From assembly GCA_028874315.1 (NCBI GenBank), contig JAPPKM010000170.1:1-61623 (forward strand): a DNA stretch of 61,623 nt, given 5' to 3'. Positions 33,308 through 57,602 of the stretch are shown in pieces. This stretch comes from Chloroflexota bacterium. GTDB taxonomy: Bacteria > Chloroflexota > UBA11872. The first letter of the stretch is position 1. Each line of letters begins with the position of its first letter. The notes beneath the pieces are model-generated. The model did no database searches, had not been told where the DNA came from, and saw nothing but the letters and a program-made list of their open reading frames with translations. Made by a program: the position numbers and the translations under genes.

Positions 33308-33309
33308 GC

Positions 33310-39622: not shown

Positions 39623-39859
39623 CTAAGCCGCGAGACGGCCCTTGATCTGACCGAGCGAATCCGCGATCGACGCCTGGTAACGCGTCATTTCGGAGTGGTG
39701 ACTCGACAGGCCGCGGACAATGTTCTCCAGCAGCTGCAGGGCGCGCGTCTCCGAATCGGTGCCGCGCGCGCGGCTGCGCCAGCGCACCATCTCGTTGCGC
39801 ACGGCGCGCGCGATGTAGACGGTGACGGCTGAAATGATGCCGATGGTTTCAGGTTCCAT
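39623..39859 (-). CDS. small N-terminally anchored membrane protein (holin-like position after the fibre gene)
   Basis: ATG at 39859 after GAAGGAGGAG RBS; 78 aa; hydrophobic TIGIISAVTVYIA followed by a charged helical region. Confidence 0.5.
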   Translation of the reverse strand: MEPETIGIISAVTVYIARAVRNEMVRWRSRARGTDSETRALQLLENIVRGLSSHHSEMTRYQASIADSLGQIKGRLAA

Positions 39860-39963
39860 GACGGTCTCCTCCTTCGAATGATTGGCGGCGGTGCCAGGTA
39901 TCGGATCGGGCCTCTCGGTACGCCGGCCCGCGTGATTCCAACCGGGATCGTCCACGGCGCGCA

Positions 39964-41016
39964 CTACACGGCTCCAATCGCGAGCCAATAGACGAGCCCC
40001 GGATCCGTGCTGCTGAAATGGCGGCCGTCCCCCGTAGCGGCCTGCAGGGTGAATCCATCAACGCGCAGGTTGGTGCAGCGCGCCACGATCCGCCGCCCGC
40101 CGATGTCCTCTCGCGGAGTGGCCAGCGCCGCGTAGACCGTGCGGAACGAGGTCTCGAACGAGACATCGTGATCGGACCAGTTTTGCGAGAGCACGCCCGC
40201 GACCGAGGCAACGCCCACCTCCGCCCGCCACTGACCGCGGTCCACGTGGTTGGCGGGGGTGCTGTCCTGGAAGTTGGTCAGGCGCAGCGCCTGGTCCAGC
40301 GGATTGGGGGTGAAGGCCGGCGCCAAAGTGCCTTCGGCCAGTTGCAGCCCGTCGAACCAGGCCGTGGTGTCGCCCTGCTTGAGCTTGCACAGCGCCAGCA
40401 AAGTCGGCGCCGCGCTGTCCACGGCAATCGTGACCGTCAGCCACTCCCAGGCCGATCCGCCCGAGTGATAGGCCGAAATTGACGTGGTCACGCCGTCGCC
40501 CAATTCCAGCCGCGCTCGATTCGGGACCGTCGCGTAGACCCAACCGCCCAGCGTGAACGTACGTCCCCGCAGGTAGGTCAGACCGCCCAGGTCGTCGGCC
40601 AGGCCGCGGCGCAGATCGCAGTCGGCGCCCCGCCGCTTCAGGGAGGCGGCATAGCGTCCGTGCTTCACGACCGACGTCGCGCGCGCAATCTGGGCATTGG
40701 CGCCCGACAGCGACCAGCCATCCGGCGCCGCCGTTCCACCGCCGGACCACGATTCAAAGTCGCCGTTCGGCAGGGCGTTGCGAAACTGCTCGGAGTGAAA
40801 CGTGTCCAACGCCAGCTTCGCGGTGGTCACCGCGCCCGTCGCCAGGGCCGCGTCGGTGAGCTGCGGACCTTCGCCCGCCCGGCCCGAGTGGTCGTGTCCC
40901 GAGGCGCCGTTGAACCCGGCGTCAATCAGGTCGGCGTTGTTGTTGAACACGTTGATGTCGTATCGCTCGGCGCCCAGCGGCTTGGTCAGCCGCAGGTTCG
41001 CCGTGGTAGTTGCCAT
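39964..41016 (-). CDS. phage tail fibre-like protein with jelly-roll/CBM-like central domain
   Basis: ATG at 41016 after TAGGAGG. MATTTANLRLTKPLGAERYDINVFNNNADLIDA..GHDHSG resembles the conserved N-terminus of prophage tail fibre/hyaluronidase-like proteins. NGDFESW..GW is CBM-like. Confidence 0.6.
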   Translation of the reverse strand: MATTTANLRLTKPLGAERYDINVFNNNADLIDAGFNGASGHDHSGRAGEGPQLTDAALATGAVTTAKLALDTFHSEQFRNALPNGDFESWSGGGTAAPDGWSLSGANAQIARATSVVKHGRYAASLKRRGADCDLRRGLADDLGGLTYLRGRTFTLGGWVYATVPNRARLELGDGVTTSISAYHSGGSAWEWLTVTIAVDSAAPTLLALCKLKQGDTTAWFDGLQLAEGTLAPAFTPNPLDQALRLTNFQDSTPANHVDRGQWRAEVGVASVAGVLSQNWSDHDVSFETSFRTVYAALATPREDIGGRRIVARCTNLRVDGFTLQAATGDGRHFSSTDPGLVYWLAIGAV

Positions 41017-41027
41017 ATCGCGGCCTC

Positions 41028-43406: not shown

Positions 43407-44612
43407 CTACCAGCCTCCACTCAACATCACCCGCCGGGTGGCCCGCGGACGATAGAGGCGAGAGAGATGCTGAAACTCCAGCGCGGCATCACGCTGCAGC
43501 GCCGCATAGCGCGCCACGTCCCCCGCCGGTGCGTCTCGGTTGAGGTGTCGGTACACCTCCACCACCGCCCCTTGCGCCACCCAGTCCACCGGGGCGTCGG
43601 TGGTGGCGTCGTCGGTAGCCAGCGGGTCGTACGCGCGCAGCCCTTCGATCAGCAACGTCTCGCCGGCGCTCGGCGGTGGATCCACCTCCAGCCATAGCCC
43701 GTGACCCATCGTTCCCGGGTTGGCTGCCGTGCGCCACCAGGCCGCCGCCGACATCACGCGCTCGGGGTGGTCGGCCGCGCGCCGCCAGACTTCGACGACT
43801 TGCTGCCGGTGCGTGATCCAGCCCGGCAGCGCGGAGCGCCGTCGGTTGGCCACCTGCAGAATCACCTGCATCCAGCGCGTCACCGCGTCGGCCTCCAGGC
43901 CACCCAGGCGGACCTCGATGTCCTCGCATCCGTCAGGGATGACGAATGCCAGTCGCAGCCGTCGCCGGGTCTGGCCTGTGCCCTCGGTCGCGCCCAGGTC
44001 AACATTTCGGCTGAGATCGCGCACCGACAGTCGAGCCGTGGAGCCGCCCGGAGCCACGGATGCTTCCAGGGTGTGCGCCTGCCCCGGCAGTACGGCCAGG
44101 CTGGTCGATGCCGCAAAGCCGCCCGCTGCCGTGTTCGTCACGTCCAGGCTGGTAGCGCCACCGGCCGCAGCCTTGGCCACGGTCGCATTCCAGGCACGCC
44201 AGGCCCGGGCGTCCGGGCTCCCCATGTCGCCGTCCGCCAGCGCCGTCAGCGGCGCCAGGGTCTGAAACCAACAGCGCGTGAGCGTGGCGTCGATCGCCGC
44301 GTCGACCACCTCGGGCGCAACCAGGCGTGACAGTTCATAGGACGCGGTCTGCACCGGATGCGGAAACGCCCGGCTGACCGTGATTGACCCTGACGCCGGG
44401 TCGTAGGCGGCCACCCGCCGGGTCTCGCCGGCGTTTCGACCGTCCAACACCAGCACCCAGCTGTCCACCCACAGGTCGGCGGATGCGGTTGAATCCTGCA
44501 GCCGTGCCGCGTCGACCAGGGTCACCGTGGACCCGCCCTCCGCCGTTCCGGTCAAAAACGGCGCCAGCCGCCGCGCAACTCGATGCCGCAGCGCGCGCCG
44601 CGTGACGCTCAT
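43407..44612 (-). CDS. phage structural protein, function unknown (adaptor/tail candidate)
   Basis: 401 aa; ATGA overlap with the upstream 84-aa gene. The central segment looks like a jelly-roll insertion. No family recognised. Confidence 0.55.
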   Translation of the reverse strand: MSVTRRALRHRVARRLAPFLTGTAEGGSTVTLVDAARLQDSTASADLWVDSWVLVLDGRNAGETRRVAAYDPASGSITVSRAFPHPVQTASYELSRLVAPEVVDAAIDATLTRCWFQTLAPLTALADGDMGSPDARAWRAWNATVAKAAAGGATSLDVTNTAAGGFAASTSLAVLPGQAHTLEASVAPGGSTARLSVRDLSRNVDLGATEGTGQTRRRLRLAFVIPDGCEDIEVRLGGLEADAVTRWMQVILQVANRRRSALPGWITHRQQVVEVWRRAADHPERVMSAAAWWRTAANPGTMGHGLWLEVDPPPSAGETLLIEGLRAYDPLATDDATTDAPVDWVAQGAVVEVYRHLNRDAPAGDVARYAALQRDAALEFQHLSRLYRPRATRRVMLSGGW

Positions 44613-44863
44613 GGTCGGGCTTCCGGGCGCTGCGTCTCACCCTGGTTCCACGCCGCTCGCTGCGAATCCAGGGTCTCCGGATCGGCTGCACCGTGATCGC
44701 GCAGGCGCGTTGCCTGGCGCTCGCGCATGGCCAGCGCCGTGTCTCGTGCTTCCTGCCGGTCAGGCGTGATCACCAGGATCTGGCGCCCGCCCGGCGCTCC
44801 GGGAAAGCGGTGGATCAGGCGCCGCGCCGGGCGGCGCCTGATCCAGATGATGGGAGCGTGCAT
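44609..44863 (-). CDS. small phage-associated hypothetical protein
   Basis: 84 aa; strong AGGAGGAGG RBS 9 nt upstream of the ATG; coupled (ATGA) to the downstream gene. Confidence 0.55.
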   Translation of the reverse strand: MHAPIIWIRRRPARRLIHRFPGAPGGRQILVITPDRQEARDTALAMRERQATRLRDHGAADPETLDSQRAAWNQGETQRPEARP

Positions 44864-44895: not shown

Positions 44896-45750
44896 TTAGC
44901 TGGACGGGGTGGACGCGTCGAAGTACATCTCCACGCCCCAGGCGTCCGCGTATTCGCCCAGGCCGTAGTCCGCCACGACATTCAGCTCCCAGGCCCGCAG
45001 CGAAGCGTCGCGCTGCCGTTCCACGGCCCAGTCCTTGAACATCACCAGCACCAGCGCCTCCTTGGAAAACACCGCGCCCTTGGCGTCGTCGCTGGCGTCC
45101 ACGTCCAGGTTTCCGGCCTGAAAGATGTCAACCCCGAAGGCGCGCGCCACCCAGTGGTTCTCCAGCACCGTCTGCGAGATGCCGGCCGGCACGGGGTACG
45201 TGCCCGTGGGGGAAATGTCGGCGGCCAGGTCGTGCGCCTGGTACGGATGCAGCACCGCGTGGAACGGCTGCGGCGCCGGTTCAGCCGCGCCGTGCAGGCG
45301 CGACACCGCCGCCCGCAGGTGCCCCACCGAGATGTTCTTGCCGGCCCCGCCCAGCGACGCGCTGAAGCTGTCCAGCAGTCCCAGCAGGTCGTCGTCCAAC
45401 TTGCGGGCGATCGCGTCGCCCAGCACTCGGCCGGCGGCCCGGGCCATGTCCTCCCTGGCCGTTCGCAGCGCCCGGTCGGTCAGTACGATCTGCGCCCCCA
45501 CTTCGGCCGGCGTGATCGTCACGTTGCTGGTGGTCAGGGTTTGCGGGTTGGTCATGTCCACGCCCTCGGTCAGGGCGGCCGCGGACACCGTGCCGAACTT
45601 GGGAATCTCCAGCTTGTCGCCGGCTCCGCGCGGAACGCGGTACGTCCGCACCAACGGTTCCATGACCGTCCGGTGCATCTGCGTGCGGCGGGCTTCGGCA
45701 ATCACCGTGTCCACCACGTCGCCAATTGAATCGCTCGTCGTAATCGCCAC
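44896..45750 (-). CDS. putative major capsid protein
   Basis: GTG at 45750 after GGAGGA (6-nt spacer) gives 284 aa. Assigned by position at the head of the structural operon and by overall resemblance to HK97-type capsid sequences; not verified. Confidence 0.5.
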   Translation of the reverse strand: MAITTSDSIGDVVDTVIAEARRTQMHRTVMEPLVRTYRVPRGAGDKLEIPKFGTVSAAALTEGVDMTNPQTLTTSNVTITPAEVGAQIVLTDRALRTAREDMARAAGRVLGDAIARKLDDDLLGLLDSFSASLGGAGKNISVGHLRAAVSRLHGAAEPAPQPFHAVLHPYQAHDLAADISPTGTYPVPAGISQTVLENHWVARAFGVDIFQAGNLDVDASDDAKGAVFSKEALVLVMFKDWAVERQRDASLRAWELNVVADYGLGEYADAWGVEMYFDASTPSS

Positions 45751-46014
45751 TGCGTCTCCTCCGGAGCGCCCGCCGATGCGCGGCGCTCGAATTGCCTGAT
45801 GTCGGTGTGACGCCGCTCGTGGGCGTCGGCTCGGCGAAACCGCGCTTCGCCGGCGCTCGGTCTGTCGGGGCACGTCAGGTCCGACCCTGACCATCTGGGG
45901 ACGGCGGGCGCGCACCGAACCCGAAATCCCATCGGGCGATGCGCGTATCTCCGCCGCCCCCGTGCTCCGCACAAGCGCGCTGGGTCGCTGATGACGCCGT
46001 CGTCGCGTTCCCCG

Positions 46015-46159: not shown

Positions 46160-46188
46160 ATTGTACACAATACGATTACGACGCGCAA
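46160..46188 (-). promoter_or_regulatory. candidate sigma-70-type promoter TTGCGC-17-TACAAT reading toward the capsid block
   Basis: Minus strand: TTGCGC gtcgtaATCGTATTgtg TACAAT. It shares ATCGTATT and GTGTACAAT with the portal promoter at 56845-56873. Confidence 0.4.
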
Positions 46189-46307
46189 CCCGACGTGGCC
46201 GGCCACCCACCAGCCTTTCCTGGGCATTCCGCGCTTTTCGGGCTTCCCTTGCCCTTGGCCTACGGCTACGATGCTTATGTCTTCCGGGTAGCCAACGGAG
46301 GCGGCGG

Positions 46308-47720
46308 ATGCCGGCTTTGCACTCCTTCCTCGGCCACAGCACGTTCCGCATGATTCTCATGGGAGCGGCCCTGTCCGCAGCGCTGGCGCTGGTACTCACG
46401 GCCACGCTTGCCCGCGCTCAATGGCCCACAACCTGTGTGGAACTCAACGACGTCGTCGAGGCCCAACTGGGCAATAATCACAATGTCGGCATCTACCAGC
46501 GCGTCTTCGGCGACCGGGCCGAGCAGGCCTGCCAGAGCGACCATCGCTCCGATGTCCAGTCCGTCTTTGCCTGGGCAATTGCGACCCCGACGCCCCCAGC
46601 CGCACCGGAACCGGGGCCCGCACCTGCACCGGGGCCCGCGCCTGCGCCCGCGCCGGACCCGATGCTCACGTCGGCCCCGATCGGCGAAATCCTGACCCTC
46701 GCGGCATCACCCGCGGTCTTCCAGGACAGCACGATTTGGCTTGGCACCTCCACTGGCGGCGTCCTCCGGTCCACAAACGCTGGTGCGGGCTTCACCCAGC
46801 ACCTCGGCGGGCTACCCAGCCTGAAGGTATACGCCATCGCCCCGTCACCCACCCTGCCTGAGGACGGCATCGTGCTAGCGGCGACGGACGTCGGGATCGG
46901 GTATTCCAGCGACCGCGGAGCAACTTGGACTGCCGCTCCCGGTGCTCCCGGGGTCCGGACCGCCGGTATCGACGCATCGCCCCGATTCGCATCTGACCGC
47001 ACCTTTTACGCAATCTCCGACAACGGTGTGCTGAGTCGGTCCACGAACAGTGGCGCCAACTGGTCATCCGTCTCCGCAAATCCCGGAAATGGCCTACCCA
47101 GAGACGTGAACTTCAACGGTCTGATCGCGGTGCAGGGACGCGGCCAGAACATCCACCTCTTCACCTGGGTCTCGACCAACCTGTGGGTGAGCGACGATCT
47201 AGGGCGGAGCTTTCGGTCGGTGCTCGGCAAGGATGCGCTCCCGAAGGACTTCAGGATTACCGCGGTCGCAGTCCATCCCGACTGGCACTACGAGAGTGTC
47301 ATCTGGATCGGCTCGAGGGAGCACGGTGTATACCGGTCGGAAGATGCCGGTGAGAAGTTTGTGAACGTACTCCACAATCCGAGGCACGACAGCGACGCGG
47401 CCCTCGGTCAGATCAATGTCATTGCCCTCTCTCCCAACCTTCCTCGCGATGGAACGATCGTGGTCGGAACGGAGCGGGGCAGCGTCTTCCTGAGCAAGCG
47501 CAGTGAGCGGCAGGGAACGGTCAAAAACATCGGAGCGCCCTCAAGCTGGGATAACAAGAGCGCCAGCCTGACGGTCGGTAACGTGCGCGGGCTCGGGTTC
47601 AGTAACGGTTTCAGCGGTGACGACACCATTTACGCCGCCGGCGGGACGCAGTTCGCCTTTACTGGCAACGCCGGCAATGACTGGTACACCTATCCGCACG
47701 ATGCAGGTCCGACCAGCTAG
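46308..47720 (+). CDS. secreted Asp-box (BNR)/Ycf48-like beta-propeller protein
   Basis: ATG at 46308 after GGAGG. Signal/anchor segment MILMGAALSAALALVLTATLA, then a Pro/Ala linker, then repeated S.D.G.TW-type boxes (SSDRGATWT, STNSGANWS, SDDLGRSF, SEDAGEKF). Confidence 0.7.
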   Translation: MPALHSFLGHSTFRMILMGAALSAALALVLTATLARAQWPTTCVELNDVVEAQLGNNHNVGIYQRVFGDRAEQACQSDHRSDVQSVFAWAIATPTPPAAPEPGPAPAPGPAPAPAPDPMLTSAPIGEILTLAASPAVFQDSTIWLGTSTGGVLRSTNAGAGFTQHLGGLPSLKVYAIAPSPTLPEDGIVLAATDVGIGYSSDRGATWTAAPGAPGVRTAGIDASPRFASDRTFYAISDNGVLSRSTNSGANWSSVSANPGNGLPRDVNFNGLIAVQGRGQNIHLFTWVSTNLWVSDDLGRSFRSVLGKDALPKDFRITAVAVHPDWHYESVIWIGSREHGVYRSEDAGEKFVNVLHNPRHDSDAALGQINVIALSPNLPRDGTIVVGTERGSVFLSKRSERQGTVKNIGAPSSWDNKSASLTVGNVRGLGFSNGFSGDDTIYAAGGTQFAFTGNAGNDWYTYPHDAGPTS

Positions 47721-49357: not shown

Positions 49358-49439
49358 GTCACAAACCGTGCGGGTGCTAAATTTTGGCTTGAGTTCAAGT
49401 AGTCAGAATCGTCACCGCTAGAAGTTTCGGAGCGTCCCA

Positions 49440-49883: not shown

Positions 49884-49941
49884 CGCCGAACCCCCTTCGC
49901 ATCCCACGGTCCGTCGCGACGGGCATTAGGAGGATCACATC

Positions 49942-50496: not shown

Positions 50497-50524
50497 TCGG
50501 GCGGTCGTCCGCCGCCGGCTGGCC

Positions 50525-50983
50525 CTACCCTTCCGCCGCTCGCCGCAATCCCGCAATGTCGATCTTCGTCATCTCCAGCAGGGCCTCCATTACCGCCTTG
50601 GGCGCCGGGGCCATGATCTCGCCCAGACCCGCCGGGATGACCTGCCACGACAGGCCGAATCTGTCGACAAGCCAACCGCACGGCTGCGTCCGCCCGCCCT
50701 CGGATAGCCGTTCCCAGTAATGGTCGATCTCGTCCTGCGTCTGGCACTCCACCACAAACGAGACCGCCGGCGTAAAGCTGTACATCGGCCCGCCGTCCAC
50801 CCCGCCGAGTCGCTGCCCATCCAGCTCGAACTCCACGATCGCACCGCCCTCGGCCGGCCCCGTCGAGATCTTCTCCACGTGCACGATCCTCGAGTTCGGA
50901 AAAACCGACACGTAGAACCTCGCCGCTTCCTCGGCCTGGCTATCGAACCAGAGAAACGGGTGAATCCTGGAAATCGATGGCAT
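50525..50983 (-). CDS. VOC-superfamily protein (PhnB / 3-demethylubiquinone-9 3-methyltransferase-like domain)
   Basis: IHPFLWFDSQAEEAARFYVSVFPNS..FELDGQ..DHYWERLSEGG..CGWLVDRFGLSWQVIP. Confidence 0.85.
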   Translation of the reverse strand: MPSISRIHPFLWFDSQAEEAARFYVSVFPNSRIVHVEKISTGPAEGGAIVEFELDGQRLGGVDGGPMYSFTPAVSFVVECQTQDEIDHYWERLSEGGRTQPCGWLVDRFGLSWQVIPAGLGEIMAPAPKAVMEALLEMTKIDIAGLRRAAEG

Positions 50984-51191: not shown

Positions 51192-51854
51192 CTACGTCAG
51201 CCCACGTCGCCGGCGGGCCGTCTCGTAGGTTTCAAGGTCAACCTCGCCACGGGCGAACCCGGCCTCGATCTGCTGAAATGCGTCGGCGGGCGCGCCGCGA
51301 CTGGGGAAAAGGTCGGGTGAAGGATCCTGGCGTCGCCGCTCGGCCAGTCGGTCTTGCGCCTCGGCCTCGCGCTCCAGGTCAACCGGCGGCGGCGCGGCCT
51401 CCACCGGTTCAGCGTCGTCCTGATCGTCGTGCTGCGTCTCGGCGCCGGACGCTGGTTCATCGGACGCGGGTTGGCCCGCTGTCTCGTCGCTCGATTCCGG
51501 TCGCCGGGTATCCGCCTGGTTCGGCGCCAGGCCCTCTGTCAGTCCCGTCTTCAGCCACTGGCCCACCGCCTGCGGATCCGCCTCGGCGATCCAGGCCAAC
51601 AGCTCGGGGTCGATCGATTGGCCGGCCTCCGACTCCCAGCGTCGCCTGGCGCGGTTCAGTTCGCGATCCTTGCGCGACTGCCAGCGGCGCTCCACGGCGT
51701 CGATACGCCGGGCCACTTCCGCTTCCAGCGCCGCCTGAAAGTCATCCGTCGAATCCGCCTCGTCCGCCCGCGCCGTGGCTGCGGCGGCATCCGTTCCAGT
51801 GGCGCCGTCGGTCGATCGGCTCGTCACGGCGGTATCCCTCGATTCTCCGGTCAT
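51192..51854 (-). CDS. acidic coiled-coil protein (scaffolding-protein candidate)
   Basis: 220 aa, very Asp/Glu- and Ala-rich with helical Arg/Glu segments; ATGA-coupled to the upstream gene. The call rests on position and composition only. Confidence 0.45.
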   Translation of the reverse strand: MTGESRDTAVTSRSTDGATGTDAAAATARADEADSTDDFQAALEAEVARRIDAVERRWQSRKDRELNRARRRWESEAGQSIDPELLAWIAEADPQAVGQWLKTGLTEGLAPNQADTRRPESSDETAGQPASDEPASGAETQHDDQDDAEPVEAAPPPVDLEREAEAQDRLAERRRQDPSPDLFPSRGAPADAFQQIEAGFARGEVDLETYETARRRRGLT

Positions 51855-52603
51855 GCCTGCTCCTTTTCTTGCGCGCCTACCGGCTCTGCCTGGGCGCTGG
51901 CCAGGGCGGCTGTCAGATCCGCCTCTGGTATTGAGTCGGGCCCGGCCTGAATCCGGGCGCCCAGCCGGGCCGCGAGGTCCAACATCTCCGTCGCGCGGAC
52001 GGCATGGACTTCGTCGGCTTCATGTGCCCAACGCGTCAATCGACGCTCCAGCGTCGGTCGGCAGTCGCGTAGCAGCGCGGTCAGGTCGAACCGAAGTCGG
52101 CGCAGCCGCGCCGCGTGGGCTGATGCGCCAATCCGCGCATAGCCTTCGCTCACCATCAGCGTCAGCAACTCGTCGGCCGAGGCCACGCGGCACAGGTCCC
52201 AGTGGGCCAGCTGCTTCGGCGCGGGCTCGTCGCAGTCGATCCGCAAACAGCCGGGCGACCATTGGCTGCCGGGCGCGCCGCACTGCGGGCAGTGCCAGTG
52301 CGCTCGCAGCAACAGCCCGCGCCGCACACACGCCTCGTCCAATCGCTGGCTTACGTAGCGACGGACGGCCGGTGAAGCGTCATTCCCGCGTGCCGCGCTA
52401 CTTACGGCCGCTATGCAGGCGCGTTCAAACGGCGTCGGCTCGGACTCGCTCAGCGTTCGATCCACCAGGCGCCGGGCGGACTGGTGATCGTCGGACGTGA
52501 GGGCATAGGCCGCGGCGTCATCGTGGCCCGGAGTCCGGGCTCGCAGAATCAAGCGCCCGTCCTGGCGCTGGATTGTCAACACGTCAACCTTCCAATTCGT
52601 CAC
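51851..52603 (-). CDS. hypothetical phage-associated protein with CxxC pair
   Basis: 250 aa, GTG start, HWHCPQCGAPGSQWSPGC motif; first gene of the leftward operon under the XRE-adjacent promoter. Confidence 0.5.
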   Translation of the reverse strand: MTNWKVDVLTIQRQDGRLILRARTPGHDDAAAYALTSDDHQSARRLVDRTLSESEPTPFERACIAAVSSAARGNDASPAVRRYVSQRLDEACVRRGLLLRAHWHCPQCGAPGSQWSPGCLRIDCDEPAPKQLAHWDLCRVASADELLTLMVSEGYARIGASAHAARLRRLRFDLTALLRDCRPTLERRLTRWAHEADEVHAVRATEMLDLAARLGARIQAGPDSIPEADLTAALASAQAEPVGAQEKEQA

Positions 52604-52738: not shown

Positions 52739-53266
52739 ATGAGCGAAACGCCGCCGGGAATGCGCTTCGCGGCCGTGCTGAACAGCACCCGCCGCGCCGC
52801 CGGCCTTTCATATCGCCAGCTGGCGCAGGCCAGCGGGATCTCCCACTCCTTCCTCAGCCACGTCGAAAAGGGGGAACGCCGTGCGCCGCCGGCCAAGGCC
52901 ATCCTCGCCCTGGCGGACGCGCTCGAAGCCGACCGCACGACCTTCGCCCTGGCCGCCATCGCCGACCGGGCCGGCAACGACGTCGCCGCCACCATGGTCG
53001 CGGCCCTTCAGCGTGGTCCGGTGGGACGGGACGTTGATCCCACGGCCGGCGGCGTCCTCATCGAGTCCGGACCTGACGATGCCGAGTCGAACTTGTCTGA
53101 CCTGACGAACCGCGACGACGCCATCGCCGAGGTCGAGCGACGCCTCGCCTTCGTGGACCTGCAACTGGACGCCGGCTTCATGCGTCTGGCCATCAGTTCC
53201 GCTTCCGGCGCCGATCCCATCGTCATGCTCGTCAGCGCCGGCGCCGACGATCCGGCAGGCGATTAG
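52739..53266 (+). CDS. XRE-family helix-turn-helix transcriptional regulator
   Basis: LSYRQLAQASGISHSFLSHVEKGERR (HTH_3). TACAAT -10 lies 9 nt before the ATG with no RBS, so the mRNA is probably near-leaderless. Confidence 0.8.
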   Translation: MSETPPGMRFAAVLNSTRRAAGLSYRQLAQASGISHSFLSHVEKGERRAPPAKAILALADALEADRTTFALAAIADRAGNDVAATMVAALQRGPVGRDVDPTAGGVLIESGPDDAESNLSDLTNRDDAIAEVERRLAFVDLQLDAGFMRLAISSASGADPIVMLVSAGADDPAGD

Positions 53267-53299: not shown

Positions 53300-54601
53300 C
53301 TACCACGTGATTCGAAACGGAATACTCTGGCGCGGTGGCCGCTCGATGGCCCCAAAGCGATCGAACAGCCAGTAGGTCAACGCCTTGATGGCGTGATTGT
53401 CGCGGTCGATCGGGATCTCAGAGATTGGCTCCAGGTCGGATGCCTCGTGGTAGCGGTAGAGCCCGAACTCCTCGATCAAGTTCTGACACTCGGGAGCAAC
53501 CGTCAGGCGCGCCTTGCCGCTGGCCGGATCGCGTAAGAACGTGCGCAGGCGGTCGATGCCGCTCCGCAGCGGAACGCGGTGTGAGCGCAGTCGCACCCCC
53601 GCCAGTGAGGCCCAGATCTCGATCTGACTTGGTGCCGCGTGGTGCTGCCGACCGGCTACGTCGATCACCCCGCCCCGCACTCGCGGCCACCAAGCACGCT
53701 GCCGGCAGGCCGCAATAACGTCCCCCGCCACTCGCCGGCGCACGTATACCTCGTCGACCACGGCCACGTCCGCCCCACGCTGCTCGAGGGCCAGCACGGC
53801 ATACGCACCGGCGTATCCGGGATCGATGGCCAACTCAACCGGTCCGCCGCTGGCGCGTGCCTCCGGCTGGACGTGCACGCGTGGCTCGAATTCTCGAAAA
53901 ACCAGCGTCGACGGCGGGCACGGCACCCCGCCAAACCGCTCCATGAACAGATCAGGCGGGAATAGGGCCTCCAGGTCAGCGATCTCCGGATCGTCGCGGC
54001 CGCCCGGATAGAGCGACCGGTTCTCCCACGACGGGATCGAAAAGGCCCGAGCATCCGATCTCCCCTTGTGCTGCCAGGCGCGAAACTTATCCGCGTACCA
54101 GCCACGCGAGCCTTCAAAGGTCCCGCTCAGCCACAGCCAGCCGCGCCGCTCCGCAATTCGCCCTCGTAGCCGCAGAAACACCGATGGCGGCAGCTGCGCC
54201 GCTTCGCACCCCAGAATCCCGTCCGGCGCCTCACCCGCCAGCCGCTCCGGCTCGCGCGCGCTGCGCGTCACGATCCGCGCGCCTGTTCGCGTGACAAGCT
54301 CGCAACGGCTGCTCCCGGGATACCGCACCGACGCCACGGCGTCGATCCGCCGGCAGGCGTCCAGGACATACTCGAATTCCGGACGGCACAGGTCGTACTC
54401 CGGGCCCACCAGCCAGTACAGCCCGCCCTCCAGCAAGCGTCCAAACAGCTCCATGGCCGCGCTGCGGCTCTTGCCGGCCCGCTCGCCGCCCGCAATCAGG
54501 CGGACTCGGGCCGGGCAGTCGTGGGCGGCGCGCTGCGCGGGCGACGGATCGTATCCCGCTCGCGCCCACAGCGCGTCACGCGCCTCGTGCGGCACGCTCA
54601 C
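53300..54601 (-). CDS. phage terminase large subunit
   Basis: Walker A LIAGGERAGKS. C-terminal RNase-H-like nuclease motifs AIDPGYAGAYAV and DRDNHAIKALTYW. GTG at 54601 after GGAAGAGG; 433 aa. Confidence 0.8.
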   Translation of the reverse strand: MSVPHEARDALWARAGYDPSPAQRAAHDCPARVRLIAGGERAGKSRSAAMELFGRLLEGGLYWLVGPEYDLCRPEFEYVLDACRRIDAVASVRYPGSSRCELVTRTGARIVTRSAREPERLAGEAPDGILGCEAAQLPPSVFLRLRGRIAERRGWLWLSGTFEGSRGWYADKFRAWQHKGRSDARAFSIPSWENRSLYPGGRDDPEIADLEALFPPDLFMERFGGVPCPPSTLVFREFEPRVHVQPEARASGGPVELAIDPGYAGAYAVLALEQRGADVAVVDEVYVRRRVAGDVIAACRQRAWWPRVRGGVIDVAGRQHHAAPSQIEIWASLAGVRLRSHRVPLRSGIDRLRTFLRDPASGKARLTVAPECQNLIEEFGLYRYHEASDLEPISEIPIDRDNHAIKALTYWLFDRFGAIERPPRQSIPFRITW

Positions 54602-54851
54602 GTACCTCTTCCAGCAGCGTTCGCAGGCCGTCCTCACCCTCGGCATCGCGCGCAAACACGTACCGAACCACCAGTTCCACCGCCCAGCGCTCGCCGTCCA
54701 GCGCCTTGGCCATGATCGTCTGGCAGAGCGCCTCATACTCCGCGTTCGCGATGGTGGTCAGGCGCTTGGCGAAGGCGCTGCTGGCGTCGCCGCTACCGGC
54801 GGCCACGGACTCGGGACCCTGCGCCGGTACCGCCGATCGGCGCTCGCCCAT
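54576..54851 (-). CDS. small protein overlapping the TerL start (terminase small-subunit candidate)
   Basis: 91 aa from ATG 54851. The 26-nt out-of-frame overlap with TerL suggests coupling. The function is assigned from position only. Confidence 0.35.
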   Translation of the reverse strand: MGERRSAVPAQGPESVAAGSGDASSAFAKRLTTIANAEYEALCQTIMAKALDGERWAVELVVRYVFARDAEGEDGLRTLLEEVRERAARGA

Positions 54852-55075: not shown

Positions 55076-56794
55076 TCACGTCCGGTCATTGGCTGTCTCC
55101 TCGGCACGCTGTGGCGCCATGCCGGCCTGGCCGAGGGCTTCGCGGACAATGGCGGAGCGGACTTCGGGGGTGTCGATGAGTTCGTCGAGGAGGATTTCGT
55201 CTTCGACGGTTTCGGCGTCTTCGATGCCGAGCTTTTCGCGCATGGCCCAGCGGCGGGAGGCGAGGCGGGCGCCGACGAGGCTGGCGGCGAGGGTGCCCTG
55301 GGCGACGTCATCGGCGGGGCCGAGCGGATCGAGGCGTACGCGGACGGCGTGGTAGCCGTCGATGTCGTGCGGGCCGAGGCCGATCCAGCCCTGTTCGTCT
55401 TCGGCCTCGAACACGAAGACGGTTTCGGCGATACGGGTTTCCACCAGCCGCCACATGAGCTGGACGATCCGCTCCAAGGCCTGCTCGGCGTGGCGGGCGA
55501 TCTGCTGGAACGAGACGCGCGCGGTGTTGATGAGCTGGTTGAGCAGGTAGCCGCTGGTGTTGCCACCGGGCGGGACGCCGAAGAGCACGCTGGGGGCGCC
55601 GGCCTGGTCGATCATGGCGCGGGTCTGGGCGATGAGTTCGTCCAGGTCGGGGGGCGTGCCCTTCCACTCCAGGAAGCTGAGGTCCTCGCCCTGGTAGAGG
55701 GGAACGACTTCGCCGGGCCGAAAGTCGAGCGCGCGGGGGCGGCCGTCGTTGGTCAGGTTGGGGTCGATGGGCGAGAAGTTGGTGATCTTGGGCGTGGGGT
55801 AGGCGTAGAGGAAGAGGGCGTTCTGCTTCATGGTCAGCAGCTGATCCAGGAGCGGGACCAGGTATTCCATGGAGGCCAGCATGGATACCCCCGCCTTGGC
55901 CGGGTCGCGGCTGGGCGTCTGGTCGCCGTAGGCGTGGACGTAGGGAATGGCCCCGTAGCCGTGCCGCCCCCGGCGCACGAGGTGACCGTCCACCAGGTAG
56001 GCGAAGTACTCGTCGTCCCAGTATTCGACGACGCGGGACGTCGGACGGGCACCCACAAGGGGCGCCCCTACGGGACCGGATTCGGATTGGGCGTCGCCGC
56101 CGGGCGGAACCAGTCGTCCGCTGCGCTTGTCGGTGATGAGCCCGTAGCGGCATTGCACGAGGTGACGCGGGCGCTCGGAGATCTCCAGGCAGGCTTCCAG
56201 CCCGTCCTCGCCTTCCAGCGGGTAGAAGGTGGTGACGTCGACGTCCCGCCAGGCGAGTGGGAAGCGGGCGGATTTCTTGAAGCGCTCGGCGCGCTGCAGG
56301 AAGTCCTGGGCCGGTTCGCCGTCGTTGGCCGACCGCCGCGGGTAGCCGGCCCAGCGGTCCGGCGCGTAGAGCAGCTTCAGAACGCCGGCGCCGTCGGCCA
56401 CCATGGCGTCGATCAGCATGCCGAACACGTCGCGGGCGGCTTCGCTGTCCATGCGGCGCAGGGCGGCGTTGGTCCACCGGGCCCTCTGGTCGGCGCCGGC
56501 GCGGGCGGCCTCGGTTGGTTCGGCCGGCGGCACGTGCACCAGCGGGCGGTTGGCGGTGAGGCTGCCGATGACTCGCTTCAATTGCTCGCGGGCGAGCGGC
56601 GTGCGTACCTCGCGGGCGCTGGTGCGGTAGGCCGGCGGGATGTCCACCGGCGTTTCCATGTGACGCAGCCGCCGCAGGCGTGCGATGCGGGCGTTGCGTT
56701 CACTGAATTCGGCGAGGAGTTGCTCCTCAAGCTCGCGCAGATACGGCTCGCCGGGCGGCGGACGCTGCGCGTCTGAATCTGGCATAGGTCCCAT
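55076..56794 (-). CDS. putative phage portal protein
   Basis: 572 aa from ATG 56794 (or 56785). Size, adjacency to the terminase genes and general portal-like sequence character support the call. The promoter at 56845-56873 argues against the longer track start at 56878. Confidence 0.55.
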   Translation of the reverse strand: MGPMPDSDAQRPPPGEPYLRELEEQLLAEFSERNARIARLRRLRHMETPVDIPPAYRTSAREVRTPLAREQLKRVIGSLTANRPLVHVPPAEPTEAARAGADQRARWTNAALRRMDSEAARDVFGMLIDAMVADGAGVLKLLYAPDRWAGYPRRSANDGEPAQDFLQRAERFKKSARFPLAWRDVDVTTFYPLEGEDGLEACLEISERPRHLVQCRYGLITDKRSGRLVPPGGDAQSESGPVGAPLVGARPTSRVVEYWDDEYFAYLVDGHLVRRGRHGYGAIPYVHAYGDQTPSRDPAKAGVSMLASMEYLVPLLDQLLTMKQNALFLYAYPTPKITNFSPIDPNLTNDGRPRALDFRPGEVVPLYQGEDLSFLEWKGTPPDLDELIAQTRAMIDQAGAPSVLFGVPPGGNTSGYLLNQLINTARVSFQQIARHAEQALERIVQLMWRLVETRIAETVFVFEAEDEQGWIGLGPHDIDGYHAVRVRLDPLGPADDVAQGTLAASLVGARLASRRWAMREKLGIEDAETVEDEILLDELIDTPEVRSAIVREALGQAGMAPQRAEETANDRT

Positions 56795-56844
56795 TCCAGG
56801 TCCGGCATCGCGGACCAGTGGGACATCGCTGGCAAGCTGGGGCC

Positions 56845-56873
56845 ATTGTACACGAGCCGAATACGATAGGCAA
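56845..56873 (-). promoter_or_regulatory. candidate promoter TTGCCT-17-TACAAT upstream of the portal-like gene
   Basis: Minus strand: TTGCCT ATCGTATTcggctcgtg TACAAT, about 44 nt before the ATG at 56794. Confidence 0.45.
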
Positions 56874-56960
56874 GCCAAGCGGGAGCCGGGAAAAGAGGGT
56901 CAGCCGCAGAACCGAGGATGGCTCATTGGCCTGGAGATTCGTTCTAGCGGCTGCTTCGGC

Positions 56961-57602
56961 CTAGTCGTCCCACATCTTCGGCCTGGTAATCACGCCGGCA
57001 CGGTCCGTGAACCGGGCTGGGAACTGGCACTCGGGCAGCAAATGCCGCTGCAGCAGCCGGTAGCTCGTCGATACGCTTCGCAGCCGGCGACTGGACGACC
57101 TCCTGGGGTCGATCACGTGTACCGGGAAGTTGAACTCCCGCCGCACCATCCGGATGACGCCGGTGAAGTCTGAATCGCCGGTGATCACGAATGCGGCCGA
57201 GCAATCACGCTTTGCGGCATCCCGCGTCAGCCACGCCGCCAGGTTTGCGTCCGAGCCTTTCTCTTCGGTGCGAATCACCGTCACTAGCGGGGGTTGGCCA
57301 GGACGAGTGTTCGCCAGCGGCATACGAACCGAGTTTGACAGAAAGTAGCCAAGATGAATTGACAAGTTCGGGATTGACCTGAGTGCCCGAAGATAGAGGT
57401 GCTGCCGCCGACGCTTCTCGGGGTCAACCTGCCGAATCCTGATCGGCGCTGTGAAGTAGCGAATGCGATGAGGTGCAAAGTCAGGGTCGAGCAGTCGAAC
57501 GGCGAGAGCCTGAAGATCCAGCCATCGATGCGGAGTGTCCCTGAGCGCGCTGTAGTAGAGGTTGAATCCGTCCACGTAGACGTTGGCGTCAATACGGGAC
57601 AT
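56961..57602 (-). CDS. NYN-domain (PIN-like) protein
   Basis: From the internal ATG at 57602: MSRIDANVYVDGFNLYYSAL..., then EEKGSDANLA and ITGDSDF acidic motifs typical of NYN/LabA-like nucleases. Confidence 0.75.
   Translation of the reverse strand: MSRIDANVYVDGFNLYYSALRDTPHRWLDLQALAVRLLDPDFAPHRIRYFTAPIRIRQVDPEKRRRQHLYLRALRSIPNLSIHLGYFLSNSVRMPLANTRPGQPPLVTVIRTEEKGSDANLAAWLTRDAAKRDCSAAFVITGDSDFTGVIRMVRREFNFPVHVIDPRRSSSRRLRSVSTSYRLLQRHLLPECQFPARFTDRAGVITRPKMWDD

What the first reader, a model, noticed from the sequence alone, without database searches (positions are those of the whole stretch)
39623..57602. Stripped-down, roughly T7-ordered podovirus-like gene set with intact coupling but no autonomy genes: candidate domesticated particle locus (GTA-like) or cryptic prophage
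Reading the minus strand from 57.6 to 39.6 kb, the genes run as follows. First an NYN protein, a portal-like protein (572 aa), a 91-aa TerS-position protein and TerL (Walker A GGERAGKS plus nuclease motifs). Then comes a divergent XRE regulator, followed by a 250-aa CxxC protein that is ATGA-coupled to an acidic scaffold-like protein. About 5 kb of cargo follows. The second block is a capsid-like protein (284 aa), then 84-aa, 401-aa and 792-aa proteins, a fibre, and a 78-aa membrane protein. The capsid-to-fibre block is tightly packed (ATGA, TAG-ATG, 11-nt gaps, GGAGG sites), so it looks functional rather than decayed. The order portal ... scaffold, capsid, about 800-aa protein, fibre, small membrane protein resembles T7-like podoviruses. 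T7 gp12 is about 800 aa, its holin follows the fibre gene, and its TerS is about 90 aa. Here, however, TerS/TerL sit between portal and scaffold. The roughly 12.5 kb of viral-type genes contain no recognisable polymerase, primase, integrase, internal-core/ejection proteins, tube/sheath/tape measure or endolysin. Both flanks are ordinary cellular genes. Intact structural genes without replication or integration functions is the pattern expected of gene-transfer-agent-like domestication.
Basis: partly seen in the sequence, partly recalled or inferred. Interest (0 to 1): 0.8.

Follow-up and report, generated by a model that had tools for sequence, protein, structure and literature searches.

The report
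Inherited podovirus-derived particle genes in Chloroflexota
A set of phage head, DNA-packaging and short-tail genes with no genes for copying or inserting itself sits at the same chromosomal spot in about 30 related Chloroflexota species and is kept intact by selection, which is the signature of a phage tamed by its host, possibly a new kind of gene transfer agent.

Summary
TerL, the HK97-fold capsid protein, the NYN protein and the XRE regulator hit their families. The portal is supported weakly and transitively. The 792-aa protein folds like podovirus nozzle/hub proteins (Pa223, P22 gp10, Sf6 gp8, T7 gp12). No integrase, replication gene or att repeat was found.

In 32 species-level Chloroflexota genomes the order is portal, TerS-position gene, TerL, variable cellular genes, capsid, p84, p401, nozzle, fibre. 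The flanks are conserved (GH127 upstream; Sua5, then CofD, IspA and Dxs downstream). Core genes are almost always intact: TerL 33/33, portal 25/26, capsid 23/24, nozzle 9/9. Their dN/dS (0.06-0.3) equals that of neighbouring host genes, and their divergence tracks host divergence (r 0.93-0.99).

The "cargo" is host DNA that has long split the element. The "scaffold" assignment is unverified.

Best reading: a vertically inherited, selectively maintained podovirus-derived particle system, probably GTA-like. Particle production and DNA content are untested. I also found a conserved structured RNA leader upstream of the capsid gene, and lone conserved terminase paralogues elsewhere in these genomes.

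The parts
56961..57650 (-). NYN-domain protein (229 aa ORF), an accessory gene that stays near the portal in most lineages
   Evidence: PF01936 4e-7 and phrog_7929 1e-43. It lies adjacent to, or within 4 kb of, the portal in many related loci. dN/dS 0.14-0.17. It is frameshifted in L005/L006.
55076..56794 (-). Portal protein candidate (572 aa)
   Evidence: phrog_156 1e-4. It is 31-35% identical to IMG/VR proteins encoded next to a TerL, and the L082 homologue matches portal phrog_64 at 1.4e-11. Intact in 25 of 26 orthologous loci. dN/dS 0.10-0.17. No hit in 50,697 phage genomes or in PDB sequences.
54576..54851 (-). Small TerS-position protein (91 aa here; conserved core of about 77-80 aa with the motif GERWAxEL)
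   Evidence: It precedes every TerL of this family, in both type A and type B loci, and overlaps the TerL start by 26 nt. No Pfam or PHROG match. The function is inferred from position only.
53300..54601 (-). Large terminase subunit (433 aa)
   Evidence: phrog_2 9e-22 and Terminase_3C. At most 28% identical to terminases of cultured phages. Intact in 33 of 33 loci. dN/dS 0.06-0.08.
52739..53266 (+). XRE-family HTH regulator, divergent from p250
   Evidence: HTH_31 7e-14. It moves together with p250 and p220: downstream of TerL in the window group, upstream of the portal and inverted in L045/L050, and absent within 10 kb in other lineages. dN/dS 0.10-0.19.
51851..52603 (-). 250-aa CxxC protein of unknown function, overlapping p220 by 4 nt
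   Evidence: No family match. Conserved with XRE and p220 in 13 loci. dN/dS 0.18-0.24.
51192..51854 (-). 220-aa acidic protein; scaffold candidate, unverified
   Evidence: No family match. No similarity to the acidic coiled-coil ORF that precedes the capsid gene in viral contig L091. dN/dS 0.23-0.31.
46161..50983 (.). Cellular genes that split the packaging module from the head-tail module: sortilin/BNR protein, sulfatase, membrane protein, bPH_2 protein, 3-dmu-9_3-mt family protein
   Evidence: Pfam. The sulfatase lies between TerL and the capsid gene in nearly all orthologous loci. Its companions vary: MR_MLE, toxin-antitoxin pairs, Fic, membrane proteins.
45879..45995 (-). Conserved structured element (about 115 nt, 4 helices) in the leader of the capsid gene
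   Evidence: A covariance model finds it once in each of the 25 distinct loci that cover this region, at 68-100 bits, and nowhere else in 1.2 Mb. 97.6% of cells are paired against 39-48% when the partners are slid, and 9 pairs show compensatory changes. No Rfam family.
44896..45750 (-). HK97-fold major capsid protein (284 aa)
   Evidence: PF25209 1e-9; phrog_544 3e-11. 83-95% identical across the whole clade. dN/dS 0.06-0.11. 32% identical to the capsid protein of viral contigs L091/L092.
44609..44863 (-). 84-aa Arg-rich protein of unknown role, overlapping p401 by 4 nt
   Evidence: Conserved in every locus that covers it. No family match. dN/dS 0.17-0.31.
43407..44612 (-). 401-aa tail protein: a conserved N- and C-terminal core with an inserted carbohydrate-binding-module-like jelly roll (about residues 134-255). 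Adaptor candidate by position.
   Evidence: AlphaFold pLDDT 90.6. PDB matches cover only the CBM/jelly-roll part. One full-length viral match, A0A1B1ITR8, at 1.8e-22. The insert is absent in L026/L028/L032/L051 and in 253-273-aa database forms. A homologue (4e-15) sits just before the nozzle homologue in viral contig L091.
41028..43406 (-). 792-aa tail nozzle/hub protein
   Evidence: Foldseek against the PDB: Pa223 tail 7.5e-11, P22 gp10 2.6e-9, E1004, Sf6 gp8, P-SCSP1u, GP4, SU10, T7 gp12 1.5e-6. 45 homologues at 51-99% identity lie on Chloroflexota chromosomes. The profile finds 5,648 cluster representatives, most about 650-690 aa. Intact in 9 of 9 loci.
39964..41016 (-). Tail fibre (350 aa): conserved N-terminal 80 aa, variable distal part
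   Evidence: Only the first ~80 residues are conserved in L005/L026/L028/L032. The L005 orthologue matches tail-fibre phrog_892 at 1.4e-9. dN/dS 0.15 against L003.
39623..39859 (-). 78-aa protein with a hydrophobic N-terminus, unknown role (holin-position)
   Evidence: The 78-aa core is about 90% conserved in L003. It is also conserved in L088 and L090, while the upstream part of the ORF is not. No family match.

Best explanation
The locus is the remnant of a short-tailed (podovirus-type) phage that became fixed in the chromosome of an ancestor of a clade of Chloroflexota, which I judge to be of roughly family depth. It has been inherited vertically ever since, and selection maintains it as a particle-building gene set.

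What is shown: it encodes a DNA-packaging motor (TerS-position protein and TerL), a portal candidate, an HK97-fold capsid protein, a nozzle/hub and a fibre, plus a tail protein (p401) whose role as adaptor I infer from position only. It has no means of replicating, integrating or excising.

What I infer about the mechanism: under control of host signals, possibly through the linked XRE regulator and the structured RNA leader of the capsid gene, a subpopulation assembles heads. The terminase, with a very small TerS-position protein, fills them headful with whatever chromosomal DNA is at hand. The nozzle and fibre are then added, and the particles deliver that DNA to sister cells. That would make it a gene-transfer-agent-like system of independent, podovirus origin. 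Vertical descent, intactness and purifying selection are shown here. Particle formation, DNA content and transfer are inferred.
For: (a) Viral structural identity.
- TerL, capsid and NYN hit their families.
- The portal is supported transitively.
- The 792-aa protein has a nozzle fold.
- The fibre orthologue matches tail-fibre families.
- A viral contig of unrelated GC content (44.5%) has the same order of capsid, p401-like and nozzle-like genes.

(b) No autonomy genes.
- No integrase, replication or lysogeny Pfam hits appear in the window or in nine annotated related loci.
- No flanking direct repeats.

(c) Fixed locus.
- The same gene order is found in 32 species-level genomes.
- The Sua5 flank is kept in most annotated loci (L003, L004, L005, L088, L090). 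L004, whose Dxs is only 71% identical to the window's, also keeps the CofD, IspA and Dxs genes beyond Sua5 in the same order.
- GH127 lies upstream of the portal across the deep split.

(d) Co-divergence.
- Pairwise identities of portal and TerL correlate with those of GH127 (r 0.98-0.99).
- TerL and portal correlate with the sulfatase (r 0.93-0.99); the capsid correlates less tightly (r 0.80).

(e) Selection.
- Intact copies: TerL 33/33, portal 25/26, capsid 23/24, nozzle 9/9.
- dN/dS is 0.06-0.31 for all element genes against 0.10-0.22 for neighbouring host genes.

(f) The genes stay intact although host DNA has split the element. Sulfatase and other genes lie between TerL and the capsid gene, and a Type ISP restriction enzyme lies between TerS and TerL in L015-L019. 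Known GTAs likewise have a core cluster plus genes at several loci (PMC11841831).

(g) The TerS-position protein is only about 77-91 aa. Known GTA small terminases lack a DNA-binding domain (PMC11841831). This is a lead, not a test.
Against: - No experiment or read data show particles or packaged host DNA.
- No recognisable scaffold lies next to the capsid gene.
- No endolysin or holin is recognisable in the window. Its subclade has lost the M23+SLT hydrolase and other small genes that more distant relatives keep after the fibre. Release and delivery functions would therefore have to be encoded elsewhere.
- The portal assignment is weak at the sequence level.
- Capsid capacity is unknown, so 'too small to carry itself' is untested.
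- The dN/dS values are simple pairwise NG86 estimates in a genome with strong GC3 bias.
- Part of the correlation in (d) comes from one deep split between two subclades.
- All genomes are MAGs, and a few apparent frameshifts may be assembly errors or real decay.
Confidence: 0.6

Rival explanations
1. The element is domesticated for a purpose other than gene transfer. Selection keeps the particle, or parts of it, for something else. Examples are a killer or decoy particle, release of DNA for the matrix, or anti-phage interference in which host capsids or terminase hijack or abort packaging by an incoming phage.
For: - Purifying selection and vertical descent say the genes are useful, not what for.
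- Lone TerS-TerL paralogues sit among purely cellular genes, are conserved and are under selection. This holds in the same genomes (type B) and, for TerL, in Dehalococcoidia (type C). A terminase can therefore be kept without adjacent capsid genes.
- The space between the modules collects defence-type genes: toxin-antitoxin pairs, Fic and a Type ISP restriction enzyme.
Against: - A complete head, packaging motor and tail with fibre is kept, which is more than a nuclease-based defence would need.
- The fibre has the conserved-base, variable-tip pattern of a receptor-binding protein that is in use.
Confidence: 0.2
2. The element is still a selfish mobile element. It could be a helper-dependent satellite, or a temperate phage whose integrase and replication genes lie elsewhere, that targets the same site next to Sua5 in many species.
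For: - Site-specific integration can mimic a conserved position.
- The XRE regulator and the NYN protein are common in mobile elements.
- One small contig (L006) has a MobA/MobL relaxase a few kb upstream.
Against: - No integrase or att repeats.
- Different host genes lie inside the element in different lineages, while both outer flanks are conserved.
- Element divergence tracks host divergence, with r up to 0.99.
- IMG/VR held no close relative of the nozzle or p401 in pattern scans; the only relatives found there, on L091/L092, are distant (HMM E 5e-13 and 4e-15).
- The portal is at most 35% identical to any IMG/VR sequence.
Confidence: 0.1
3. The element is an old defective prophage that is simply decaying slowly and has no function.
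For: - The window subclade has lost several genes that relatives keep.
- There are occasional frameshifts: portal in L034, NYN in L005/L006, possibly the capsid gene in L026.
- Host genes have been inserted.
Against: - dS of 0.3-1 between orthologues with dN/dS of 0.06-0.3, and nearly universal intactness over 32 species, are incompatible with neutrality.
- The capsid protein is 83-95% identical where Sua5 is 48-53% identical.
Confidence: 0.05

Closest known systems
Gene transfer agents: RcGTA/CcGTA of Alphaproteobacteria, BaGTA of Bartonella, VSH-1 of Brachyspira, Dd1 of Desulfovibrio, VTA of Methanococcus
   Same: - Phage-derived head, packaging and tail genes reside in the chromosome without replication or integration functions.
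- They are inherited vertically and are under purifying selection.
- The genes can be spread over more than one locus (PMC11841831).
- The small terminase candidate is very small.
   Different: - There is no sequence relationship to RcGTA-type clusters in gene content. This locus has no tube, tape-measure or head-completion set, and has a podovirus nozzle instead.
- The host phylum is different (Chloroflexota), and no paper on a GTA there was found.
- Particle production, DNA content and transfer are untested here.
Tail machines of T7-like and P22-like podoviruses (T7 gp8/gp10/gp11/gp12/gp17; P22 gp1/gp5/gp4/gp10/gp9)
   Same: - HK97-fold capsid protein.
- A nozzle/hub of about 790 aa with the same fold (T7 gp12 1.5e-6; P22 gp10 2.6e-9).
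- A protein in the adaptor position just before the nozzle, a fibre after it, and no prohead protease.
   Different: - No RNA or DNA polymerase.
- No internal core proteins in the window. Only relatives carry an M23+SLT protein, which matches phrog_342 'internal virion protein with endolysin domain'.
- The portal lies upstream of TerS/TerL, and no scaffold gene lies next to the capsid gene.
- Nozzle-to-PDB sequence identity in the fold alignments is about 10%, and neither the nozzle nor the p401 profile matches a phage tail protein in PDB sequences.
- p401 carries an inserted CBM-like domain, and its adaptor fold is not demonstrated.
Uncultured viral contigs IMGVR_UViG_3300032087_002127 and IMGVR_UViG_3300031977_002133 (L091/L092), and the portal/TerL relatives L077-L087
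   Same: - L091 has an acidic coiled-coil ORF, a capsid gene (32% identical), three small genes, a p401-like gene and a nozzle-like gene in the same order.
- L077-L086 have TerL and portal relatives (31-35% identical) side by side.
   Different: - The GC content is very different (44.5% in L091/L092 and 59-66% in the portal/TerL contigs, against 68-70% here).
- In those contigs TerL precedes the portal.
- Their nozzle lacks the inserted domain of about 140 aa (638 aa against 792 aa).
- None is a close relative.
Capsid-forming phage satellites (cf-PICI and related) and defective-prophage particles such as PBSX
   Same: A chromosomal element encoding capsid and packaging proteins without a full phage genome.
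   Different: - Satellites carry an integrase, regulators of helper sensing and replication genes, rely on helper tails, and are patchily distributed.
- This locus has its own nozzle and fibre, no integrase, and a fixed, co-diverging position.

Membership tests
Gene transfer agent (functional class) | Phage-derived structural and packaging genes in the chromosome, without replication, integration or lysogeny-switch modules of their own | tested here: met
   Pfam, PHROG and fold assignments. No integrase or replication families in the window or in nine annotated related loci. No att-like repeats.
Gene transfer agent (functional class) | Vertical inheritance at a fixed locus across a host lineage, with purifying selection | tested here: met
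   32 species-level genomes share the order and flanks. Element and host identities correlate at 0.93-0.99 for portal and TerL (capsid 0.80). dN/dS is 0.06-0.31. Core genes are intact in nearly all loci.
Gene transfer agent (functional class) | Particles carry essentially random host DNA, in pieces too short to encode the element | not testable with these tools
   This needs sequencing of DNase-protected particle DNA. Capsid size cannot be read from the sequence.
Gene transfer agent (functional class) | Particles are released and transfer DNA to recipient cells | not testable with these tools
   The organisms are uncultured and known only as MAGs.
Gene transfer agent (functional class) | Small terminase without a sequence-specific DNA-binding domain (PMC11841831) | tested here: inconclusive
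   The TerS-position protein has a conserved core of only about 77-80 aa and matches no family. Its length is suggestive, but its fold and function are unknown.
RcGTA-like cluster (Alphaproteobacteria) | Siphovirus-type head-tail cluster: head completion proteins, tail tube, tape measure, distal tail and hub proteins | tested here: not met
   No tube or tape-measure families were hit. The large tail protein has a podovirus nozzle fold.
T7/P22-type podovirus virion module | Nozzle/hub protein with the gp12/gp10 fold | tested here: met
   The top Foldseek PDB hits are podovirus tail nozzles or hubs, E 7.5e-11 to 1.5e-6 and TM to target about 0.5 for P22 gp10.
T7/P22-type podovirus virion module | Adaptor (gp11/gp4 type) between portal and nozzle | tested here: inconclusive
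   p401 is in the right position and its homologue precedes the nozzle in viral contig L091. However, structure matches are dominated by its inserted CBM-like domain.
T7/P22-type podovirus virion module | Scaffolding gene next to the capsid gene | tested here: not met
   The region upstream of the capsid gene is non-coding and holds a structured RNA element. The acidic p220 lies 5.4 kb away, has no family match, and is missing from many orthologous loci.
T7/P22-type podovirus virion module | Internal core or ejection proteins | tested here: not met
   None in the window. The relatives L005 and L089 carry a 325-335-aa M23+SLT protein, which in L005 matches phrog_342 at 2e-17.
Integrated temperate prophage (intact or recently inactivated) | Integrase and att sites, patchy distribution, and decay once inactivated | tested here: not met
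   No integrase or att repeats. The position is conserved and the genes are intact across 32 species.

The most novel reading that the evidence does not exclude
This is an independently evolved, podovirus-derived gene transfer agent fixed in a clade of Chloroflexota. Many of the MAGs carry isolate names of sponge-microbiome bin series, but that is my reading of the names and I did not test it.

Its two gene modules have been pulled apart by host DNA yet stay functional. Capsid expression is governed by a dedicated, previously undescribed structured RNA leader. Related lone terminase genes in the same phylum hint that parts of such systems have been co-opted more than once.
Probability: 0.4. 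Interest if true: 0.8.

Novelty: new variant of a known kind. Interest (0 to 1): 0.68.

Why it matters
Gene transfer agents with known gene sets come from very few lineages, and the best understood are siphovirus-like elements of Alphaproteobacteria. The field's own reviews ask whether other GTAs are isolated oddities or widespread (PMC11841831).

A short-tailed, independently domesticated particle system conserved across about 30 Chloroflexota species would add a new origin and a new morphotype. It would also point to a route of gene exchange within these communities.

The case is directly testable with existing data types, because it predicts host-wide read coverage in particle fractions of the source communities. 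It also provides two further handles:
- a conserved RNA leader that may be the switch for capsid production;
- orphan terminases under selection, which raise the question of what a packaging ATPase-nuclease does on its own.

Tried and rejected
- **Att sites.** Direct repeats over 38.0-59.0 kb gave only short GC-rich chance matches, none bracketing the element.
- **tRNA genes as integration targets.** There are none in the window.
- **Sequence-level links to solved structures.** Neither the portal alone nor its profile gave a hit. The p401 and nozzle profiles gave only domain-level hits.
- **Cultured phages.** The portal has no tblastn hit in 50,697 phage records, and TerL is at most 28% identical.
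- **IMG/VR pattern scans.** The nozzle and p401 alignments found nothing. The capsid alignment did find L091/L092.
- **PHROG and Pfam searches.** Searches for TerS, p250, p220, p84, p78 and the extra small genes of relatives, including divergent copies, gave no hits.
- **p220 against the scaffold-position ORF of L091.** No similarity.
- **Second TerL group (63-65% identity).** I tested whether it marks a second complete element. It does not: only a TerS-like gene accompanies it.
- **Dehalococcoidia TerL group (40-43% identity).** I tested whether it sits in a phage cluster. Its conserved neighbours are AlaX-like, DUF4389, methylase and ABC-transporter genes.
- **Capsid leader structure elsewhere.** I tested whether it also occurs upstream of the portal or of the lone terminases, which would have indicated a regulon. 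It does not.
- **Rfam.** No family matches the leader, and nothing in the window reaches a gathering score.
- **Longer capsid ORF (358 aa) as an N-terminal delta domain.** I rejected this. The upstream part is conserved as RNA structure, not as protein, and public gene calls start at 284 aa.
- **Literature.** Four full-text searches found no description of a GTA or conserved prophage-like locus in Chloroflexota.

Full report
**1. What is in the window**

The window has about 68% GC. Strong GC3 periodicity separates real genes from the many spurious ORFs. They coincide with the gene calls of the public record, a Chloroflexota MAG (GCA_034663515.1, contig DAOUIH010000217.1).

Family searches give:
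- NYN: PF01936 at 4e-7 and phrog_7929 at 1e-43.
- Large terminase: phrog_2 at 9e-22.
- XRE regulator: HTH_31 at 7e-14.
- HK97-fold capsid protein: PF25209 at 1e-9 and phrog_544 at 3e-11.

The portal candidate has only a weak direct hit (phrog_156, 1e-4). It is, however, 31-35% identical over its full length to IMG/VR proteins encoded next to a TerL relative. One of those proteins matches portal phrog_64 at 1.4e-11.

The TerS-position, 250-aa, 220-aa, 84-aa and 78-aa proteins match nothing.

The 46.2-51.0 kb stretch holds ordinary cellular genes: a sortilin/BNR protein, a sulfatase, a membrane protein, a bPH_2 protein and a 3-dmu-9_3-mt family protein. The rest of the window is housekeeping: PGK, GAPDH, SelB, squalene-hopene cyclase, Amt, Dxs, IspA, CofD, a STAS partner-switching cluster and Sua5. 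There is no tRNA gene.

**2. The two large unknown tail proteins**

An AlphaFold model of the 792-aa protein (32-sequence alignment, pLDDT 74) was searched against the PDB. The best matches are podovirus tail nozzle or hub proteins:
- Pa223 tail, 7.5e-11
- P22 gp10, 2.6e-9 (TM to target about 0.5)
- E1004, Sf6 gp8, P-SCSP1u, GP4 and SU10
- T7 gp12, 1.5e-6

Generic beta-propellers rank below these.

An exhaustive profile search finds 5,648 cluster representatives of this family. Most are 640-690 aa, so the 792-aa form carries an extra inserted domain.

The 401-aa protein models very well (pLDDT 90.6). Its structural matches are dominated by a carbohydrate-binding-module-like jelly roll at about residues 134-255. 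That domain is simply absent in some orthologues (L026, L028, L032, L051; database forms of 253-273 aa). It is therefore an insertion into a conserved core made of the N- and C-terminal parts.

One unnamed viral protein matches the whole 401-aa chain (1.8e-22). A viral contig of unrelated composition (L091, 44.5% GC) carries, in this order:
- an acidic coiled-coil ORF;
- a capsid gene (32% identical);
- three small genes;
- a p401-like gene (4e-15);
- a nozzle-like gene (5e-13).

The capsid-to-nozzle block is thus a viral module. I infer from position that p401 is the adaptor. This is not shown.

The fibre keeps only its first ~80 residues across the clade. The L005 orthologue matches tail-fibre PHROGs.

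**3. Comparison across genomes**

Homologues of the nozzle (51-99% identical, all about 776-793 aa) lie on Chloroflexota chromosomes of 2.7-3.6 Mb. A TerL alignment scanned against one genome per GTDB species returned 70 loci.

Thirty-two species-level genomes carry an orthologous "type A" element, with TerL 66-90% identical. The order is portal, TerS-position gene, TerL, cellular genes, capsid, p84, p401, nozzle, fibre.

The flanks are conserved:
- On the fibre side is Sua5/YrdC in most annotated loci (L003, L004, L005, L088, L090). In L004, whose Dxs is only 71% identical to the window's, the CofD, IspA and Dxs genes follow beyond Sua5 in the same order.
- L089 is an exception on this side: its fibre-side flank has been rearranged and Sua5 is not there.
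- On the portal side a GH127 glycosidase recurs across the deepest split.

The cellular DNA between TerL and the capsid gene is old. A sulfatase is there in nearly every lineage, and an MR_MLE enzyme in many. The rest varies and includes toxin-antitoxin pairs, a Fic protein and membrane proteins.

In L015-L019 a Type ISP restriction enzyme sits between TerS and TerL. In L050 an IS481 transposase sits before the portal. Even the most compact form (L045) has MR_MLE between TerL and the capsid gene.

No integrase or replication family appears in any of the nine loci for which precomputed Pfam annotation was returned, nor among the portal-side neighbours I scanned. No direct repeats bracket the element.

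**4. Selection and descent**

Core genes are intact almost everywhere: TerL 33/33, portal 25/26, capsid 23/24, nozzle 9/9, and p401 in every locus that covers it.

Pairwise NG86 estimates against the closer relatives (dS about 0.3-1) give these dN/dS values:

| Gene | dN/dS |
|---|---|
| Capsid | 0.06-0.11 |
| TerL | 0.06-0.08 |
| Portal | 0.10-0.17 |
| p401 | 0.18-0.19 |
| Nozzle | 0.20 |
| Fibre | 0.15 |
| p78 | 0.10 |
| NYN | 0.14-0.17 |
| XRE | 0.10-0.19 |
| p250 | 0.18-0.24 |
| p220 | 0.23-0.31 |
| Neighbouring host genes (sulfatase, dmu, bPH_2, mem147, Sua5) | 0.10-0.22 |

The element genes fall in the same range as the host genes.

Element divergence also follows host divergence:
- Against L003: Sua5 78%, sulfatase 85%, nozzle 79%, capsid 95% identity.
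- Against L004: Sua5 48%, sulfatase 56%, nozzle 57%, capsid 85% identity.

Over all pairs of loci, portal and TerL identities correlate with those of GH127 at r = 0.98-0.99 (12-13 species). TerL and portal correlate with the sulfatase at 0.93-0.99, and the capsid at 0.80.

Caveats: the estimates are simple, GC3 bias compresses dS, and one deep split contributes much of the correlation.

Taken together these results rule out a recently acquired or neutrally decaying prophage. They make repeated site-specific integration very unlikely.

**5.

(i) The order is only partly T7-like. Here the portal precedes TerS and TerL, whereas related viral contigs have TerL then portal.

(ii) XRE, p250 and p220 form a trio that moves as a unit. 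It lies downstream of TerL in the window's group, and upstream of the portal and inverted in L045 and L050. It is not seen within 10 kb in other lineages. The scaffold label for p220 remains a guess. It shows no similarity to the scaffold-position ORF of L091.

(iii) More distant relatives keep extra genes after the fibre: a 110-aa gene, a 313-335-aa protein, small membrane proteins, and a 325-335-aa M23+SLT peptidoglycan hydrolase. In L005 the hydrolase matches "internal virion protein with endolysin domain" (phrog_342, 2e-17). The window's subclade (window, L003, L088, L090) has only the fibre and p78 before Sua5. From memory, the phi29 tail enzyme gp13 also combines a muramidase-type domain with an M23 domain. 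That is a lead for a wall-penetration role, not a test.

**6. How it most likely works**

*Shown:* a vertically inherited, selectively maintained set of head, packaging and short-tail genes without autonomy functions.

*Inferred:* host-controlled expression in some cells; assembly of capsids on the portal; headful filling by TerL with a very small TerS-position protein (about 77-91 aa, no family match); attachment of p401, nozzle and fibres; release, and delivery of chromosomal DNA to sister cells. That is a gene-transfer-agent-like system.

The GTA review PMC11841831 states three things that fit this locus. GTAs have a core head-tail cluster plus accessory genes at other loci. They carry 4-14 kb of DNA. 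Their small terminases lack a DNA-binding domain. None of these was tested functionally here.

I put 0.6 on this reading. The rivals are:
- 0.2 on domestication for another purpose (defence, killing, DNA release);
- 0.1 on a still-selfish satellite or phage;
- 0.05 on functionless decay.

**7. Relation to what is known**

The locus works like a GTA by the two criteria that can be tested in silico: it has no autonomy genes, and it shows vertical descent under selection. It is not an RcGTA-type cluster, because it lacks a tube, tape measure and head-completion set and has a podovirus nozzle instead.

It is a distant member of a large, mostly uncultured podovirus structural-gene family. No close relative was found among cultured phages or in IMG/VR.

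Four full-text searches found no description of a GTA or conserved phage-like locus in Chloroflexota. I therefore rate it a new variant of a known kind: an independent, podovirus-derived candidate GTA in a new phylum.

**8. Side findings**

A 115-nt structured element lies in the capsid gene's leader (window 45879-45995, minus strand).
- It occurs exactly once in each of the 25 distinct loci that cover that region, and nowhere else in 1.2 Mb.
- 97.6% of cells are paired, against 39-48% in slid controls.
- Nine of its 23 pairs show compensatory changes.
- No Rfam family matches it.

Many of the same genomes carry a second, lone pair of TerS and TerL genes (63-65% identical to the window's TerL). 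These lie among cellular genes. All 14 copies are intact, with median dN/dS of 0.22.

Dehalococcoidia carry a lone TerL (40-43% identical) at a conserved position between AlaX-like, DUF4389, methylase and ABC-transporter genes. All 11 copies are intact, with median dN/dS of 0.17.

Both findings deserve follow-up in their own right.

Noticed in passing
window 45879-45995 (minus strand); e.g. L003:7363-7474, L005:7303-7418, L045:12809-12923: A conserved structured RNA-like element of about 115 nt lies in the leader of the capsid gene and ends about 129 nt before the start codon. It has four helices, 9 of 23 pairs with compensatory changes, and invariant GCUU and GGA loop residues. It occurs once in each of the 25 distinct loci that cover the region, nowhere else in 1.2 Mb, and matches no Rfam family.
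   Followed up: partly
L031, L035-L037, L039-L044, L046-L049, L053, L063 (TerL at about 10001-11300 in most of these loci): A second, lone pair of TerS-like and TerL genes (63-65% identical to the window's TerL) occurs elsewhere in many of the genomes that carry the element, surrounded only by cellular genes. All 14 full-length copies examined are intact, with median dN/dS of 0.22.
   Followed up: partly
L056-L074 (Dehalococcoidia MAG chromosomes), TerL at about 10001-11340: A lone TerL (40-43% identical) sits at a conserved position between an AlaX-like editing protein and DUF4389, DNA methylase and ABC-transporter genes. All 11 copies are intact, with median dN/dS of 0.17. No capsid or portal gene lies within 10 kb.
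   Followed up: partly
L015-L019, between TerS and TerL (e.g. L016:6057-9452, minus strand): A 1,100-aa Type ISP restriction-modification enzyme lies between the TerS-position gene and TerL, separating them by 6-7 kb, yet both stay intact.
   Followed up: partly
L004:13455-15268; L005:13015-15972; L089:13438-15552; L045:19131-20955: More distant relatives keep genes after the fibre that the window's subclade lacks: a 110-aa protein, a 313-335-aa protein with no family match, small membrane proteins, and a 325-335-aa M23+SLT peptidoglycan hydrolase (phrog_342, 2e-17).
   Followed up: partly
window 43847-44213 (residues about 134-255 of the 401-aa protein): A carbohydrate-binding-module-like jelly-roll domain is present in some orthologues and cleanly absent in others (L026, L028, L032, L051; database forms of 253-273 aa). 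This is a domain-level presence/absence polymorphism in a tail protein.
   Followed up: partly
L034:8205-9736 (portal); L005:16008-16635 and L006:16009-16637 (NYN); L026:9103-9935 (capsid): These are apparent frameshifts in single genomes. They may be real decay or assembly errors in MAGs.
   Followed up: no
between TerL and the capsid gene in related loci (e.g. L005:887-1510, L032:11725-15140, L003:1833-2225): The host DNA that splits the element collects toxin-antitoxin pairs (PIN/PhdYeFM, VapBC-like, HicB) and a Fic protein, so it resembles a small defence or addiction-module hotspot.
   Followed up: no
window 52609-52620 and 52654-52665: A perfect 12-nt inverted repeat (CGACGCCGGGGG / CCCCCGGCGTCG, arms 33 nt apart) lies in the divergent intergenic region between the XRE gene and p250. 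It could be an operator or a hairpin.
   Followed up: no
window 5109-7025 (+): A 638-aa protein with a C-terminal Peptidase_M78/IrrE domain, a family often paired with XRE regulators of mobile elements, lies 45 kb from the element among housekeeping genes.
   Followed up: no
window 30000-38400 versus L004:15812-18275: Relative to L004, the window has about 7 kb inserted between the HAD hydrolase and Sua5: a sensor kinase, a solute-binding protein, an anti-sigma-type kinase, PP2C response regulators and STAS proteins. This is a partner-switching signalling cluster directly beside the element.
   Followed up: no
window 53300-54601 versus neighbours: The apparent synonymous divergence of TerL (dS 0.8-1.9) is about twice that of the portal and capsid genes (0.3-0.75) in the same genome pairs, although dN is similar. 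This may reflect weaker GC3 bias or exchange with the lone paralogue.
   Followed up: no
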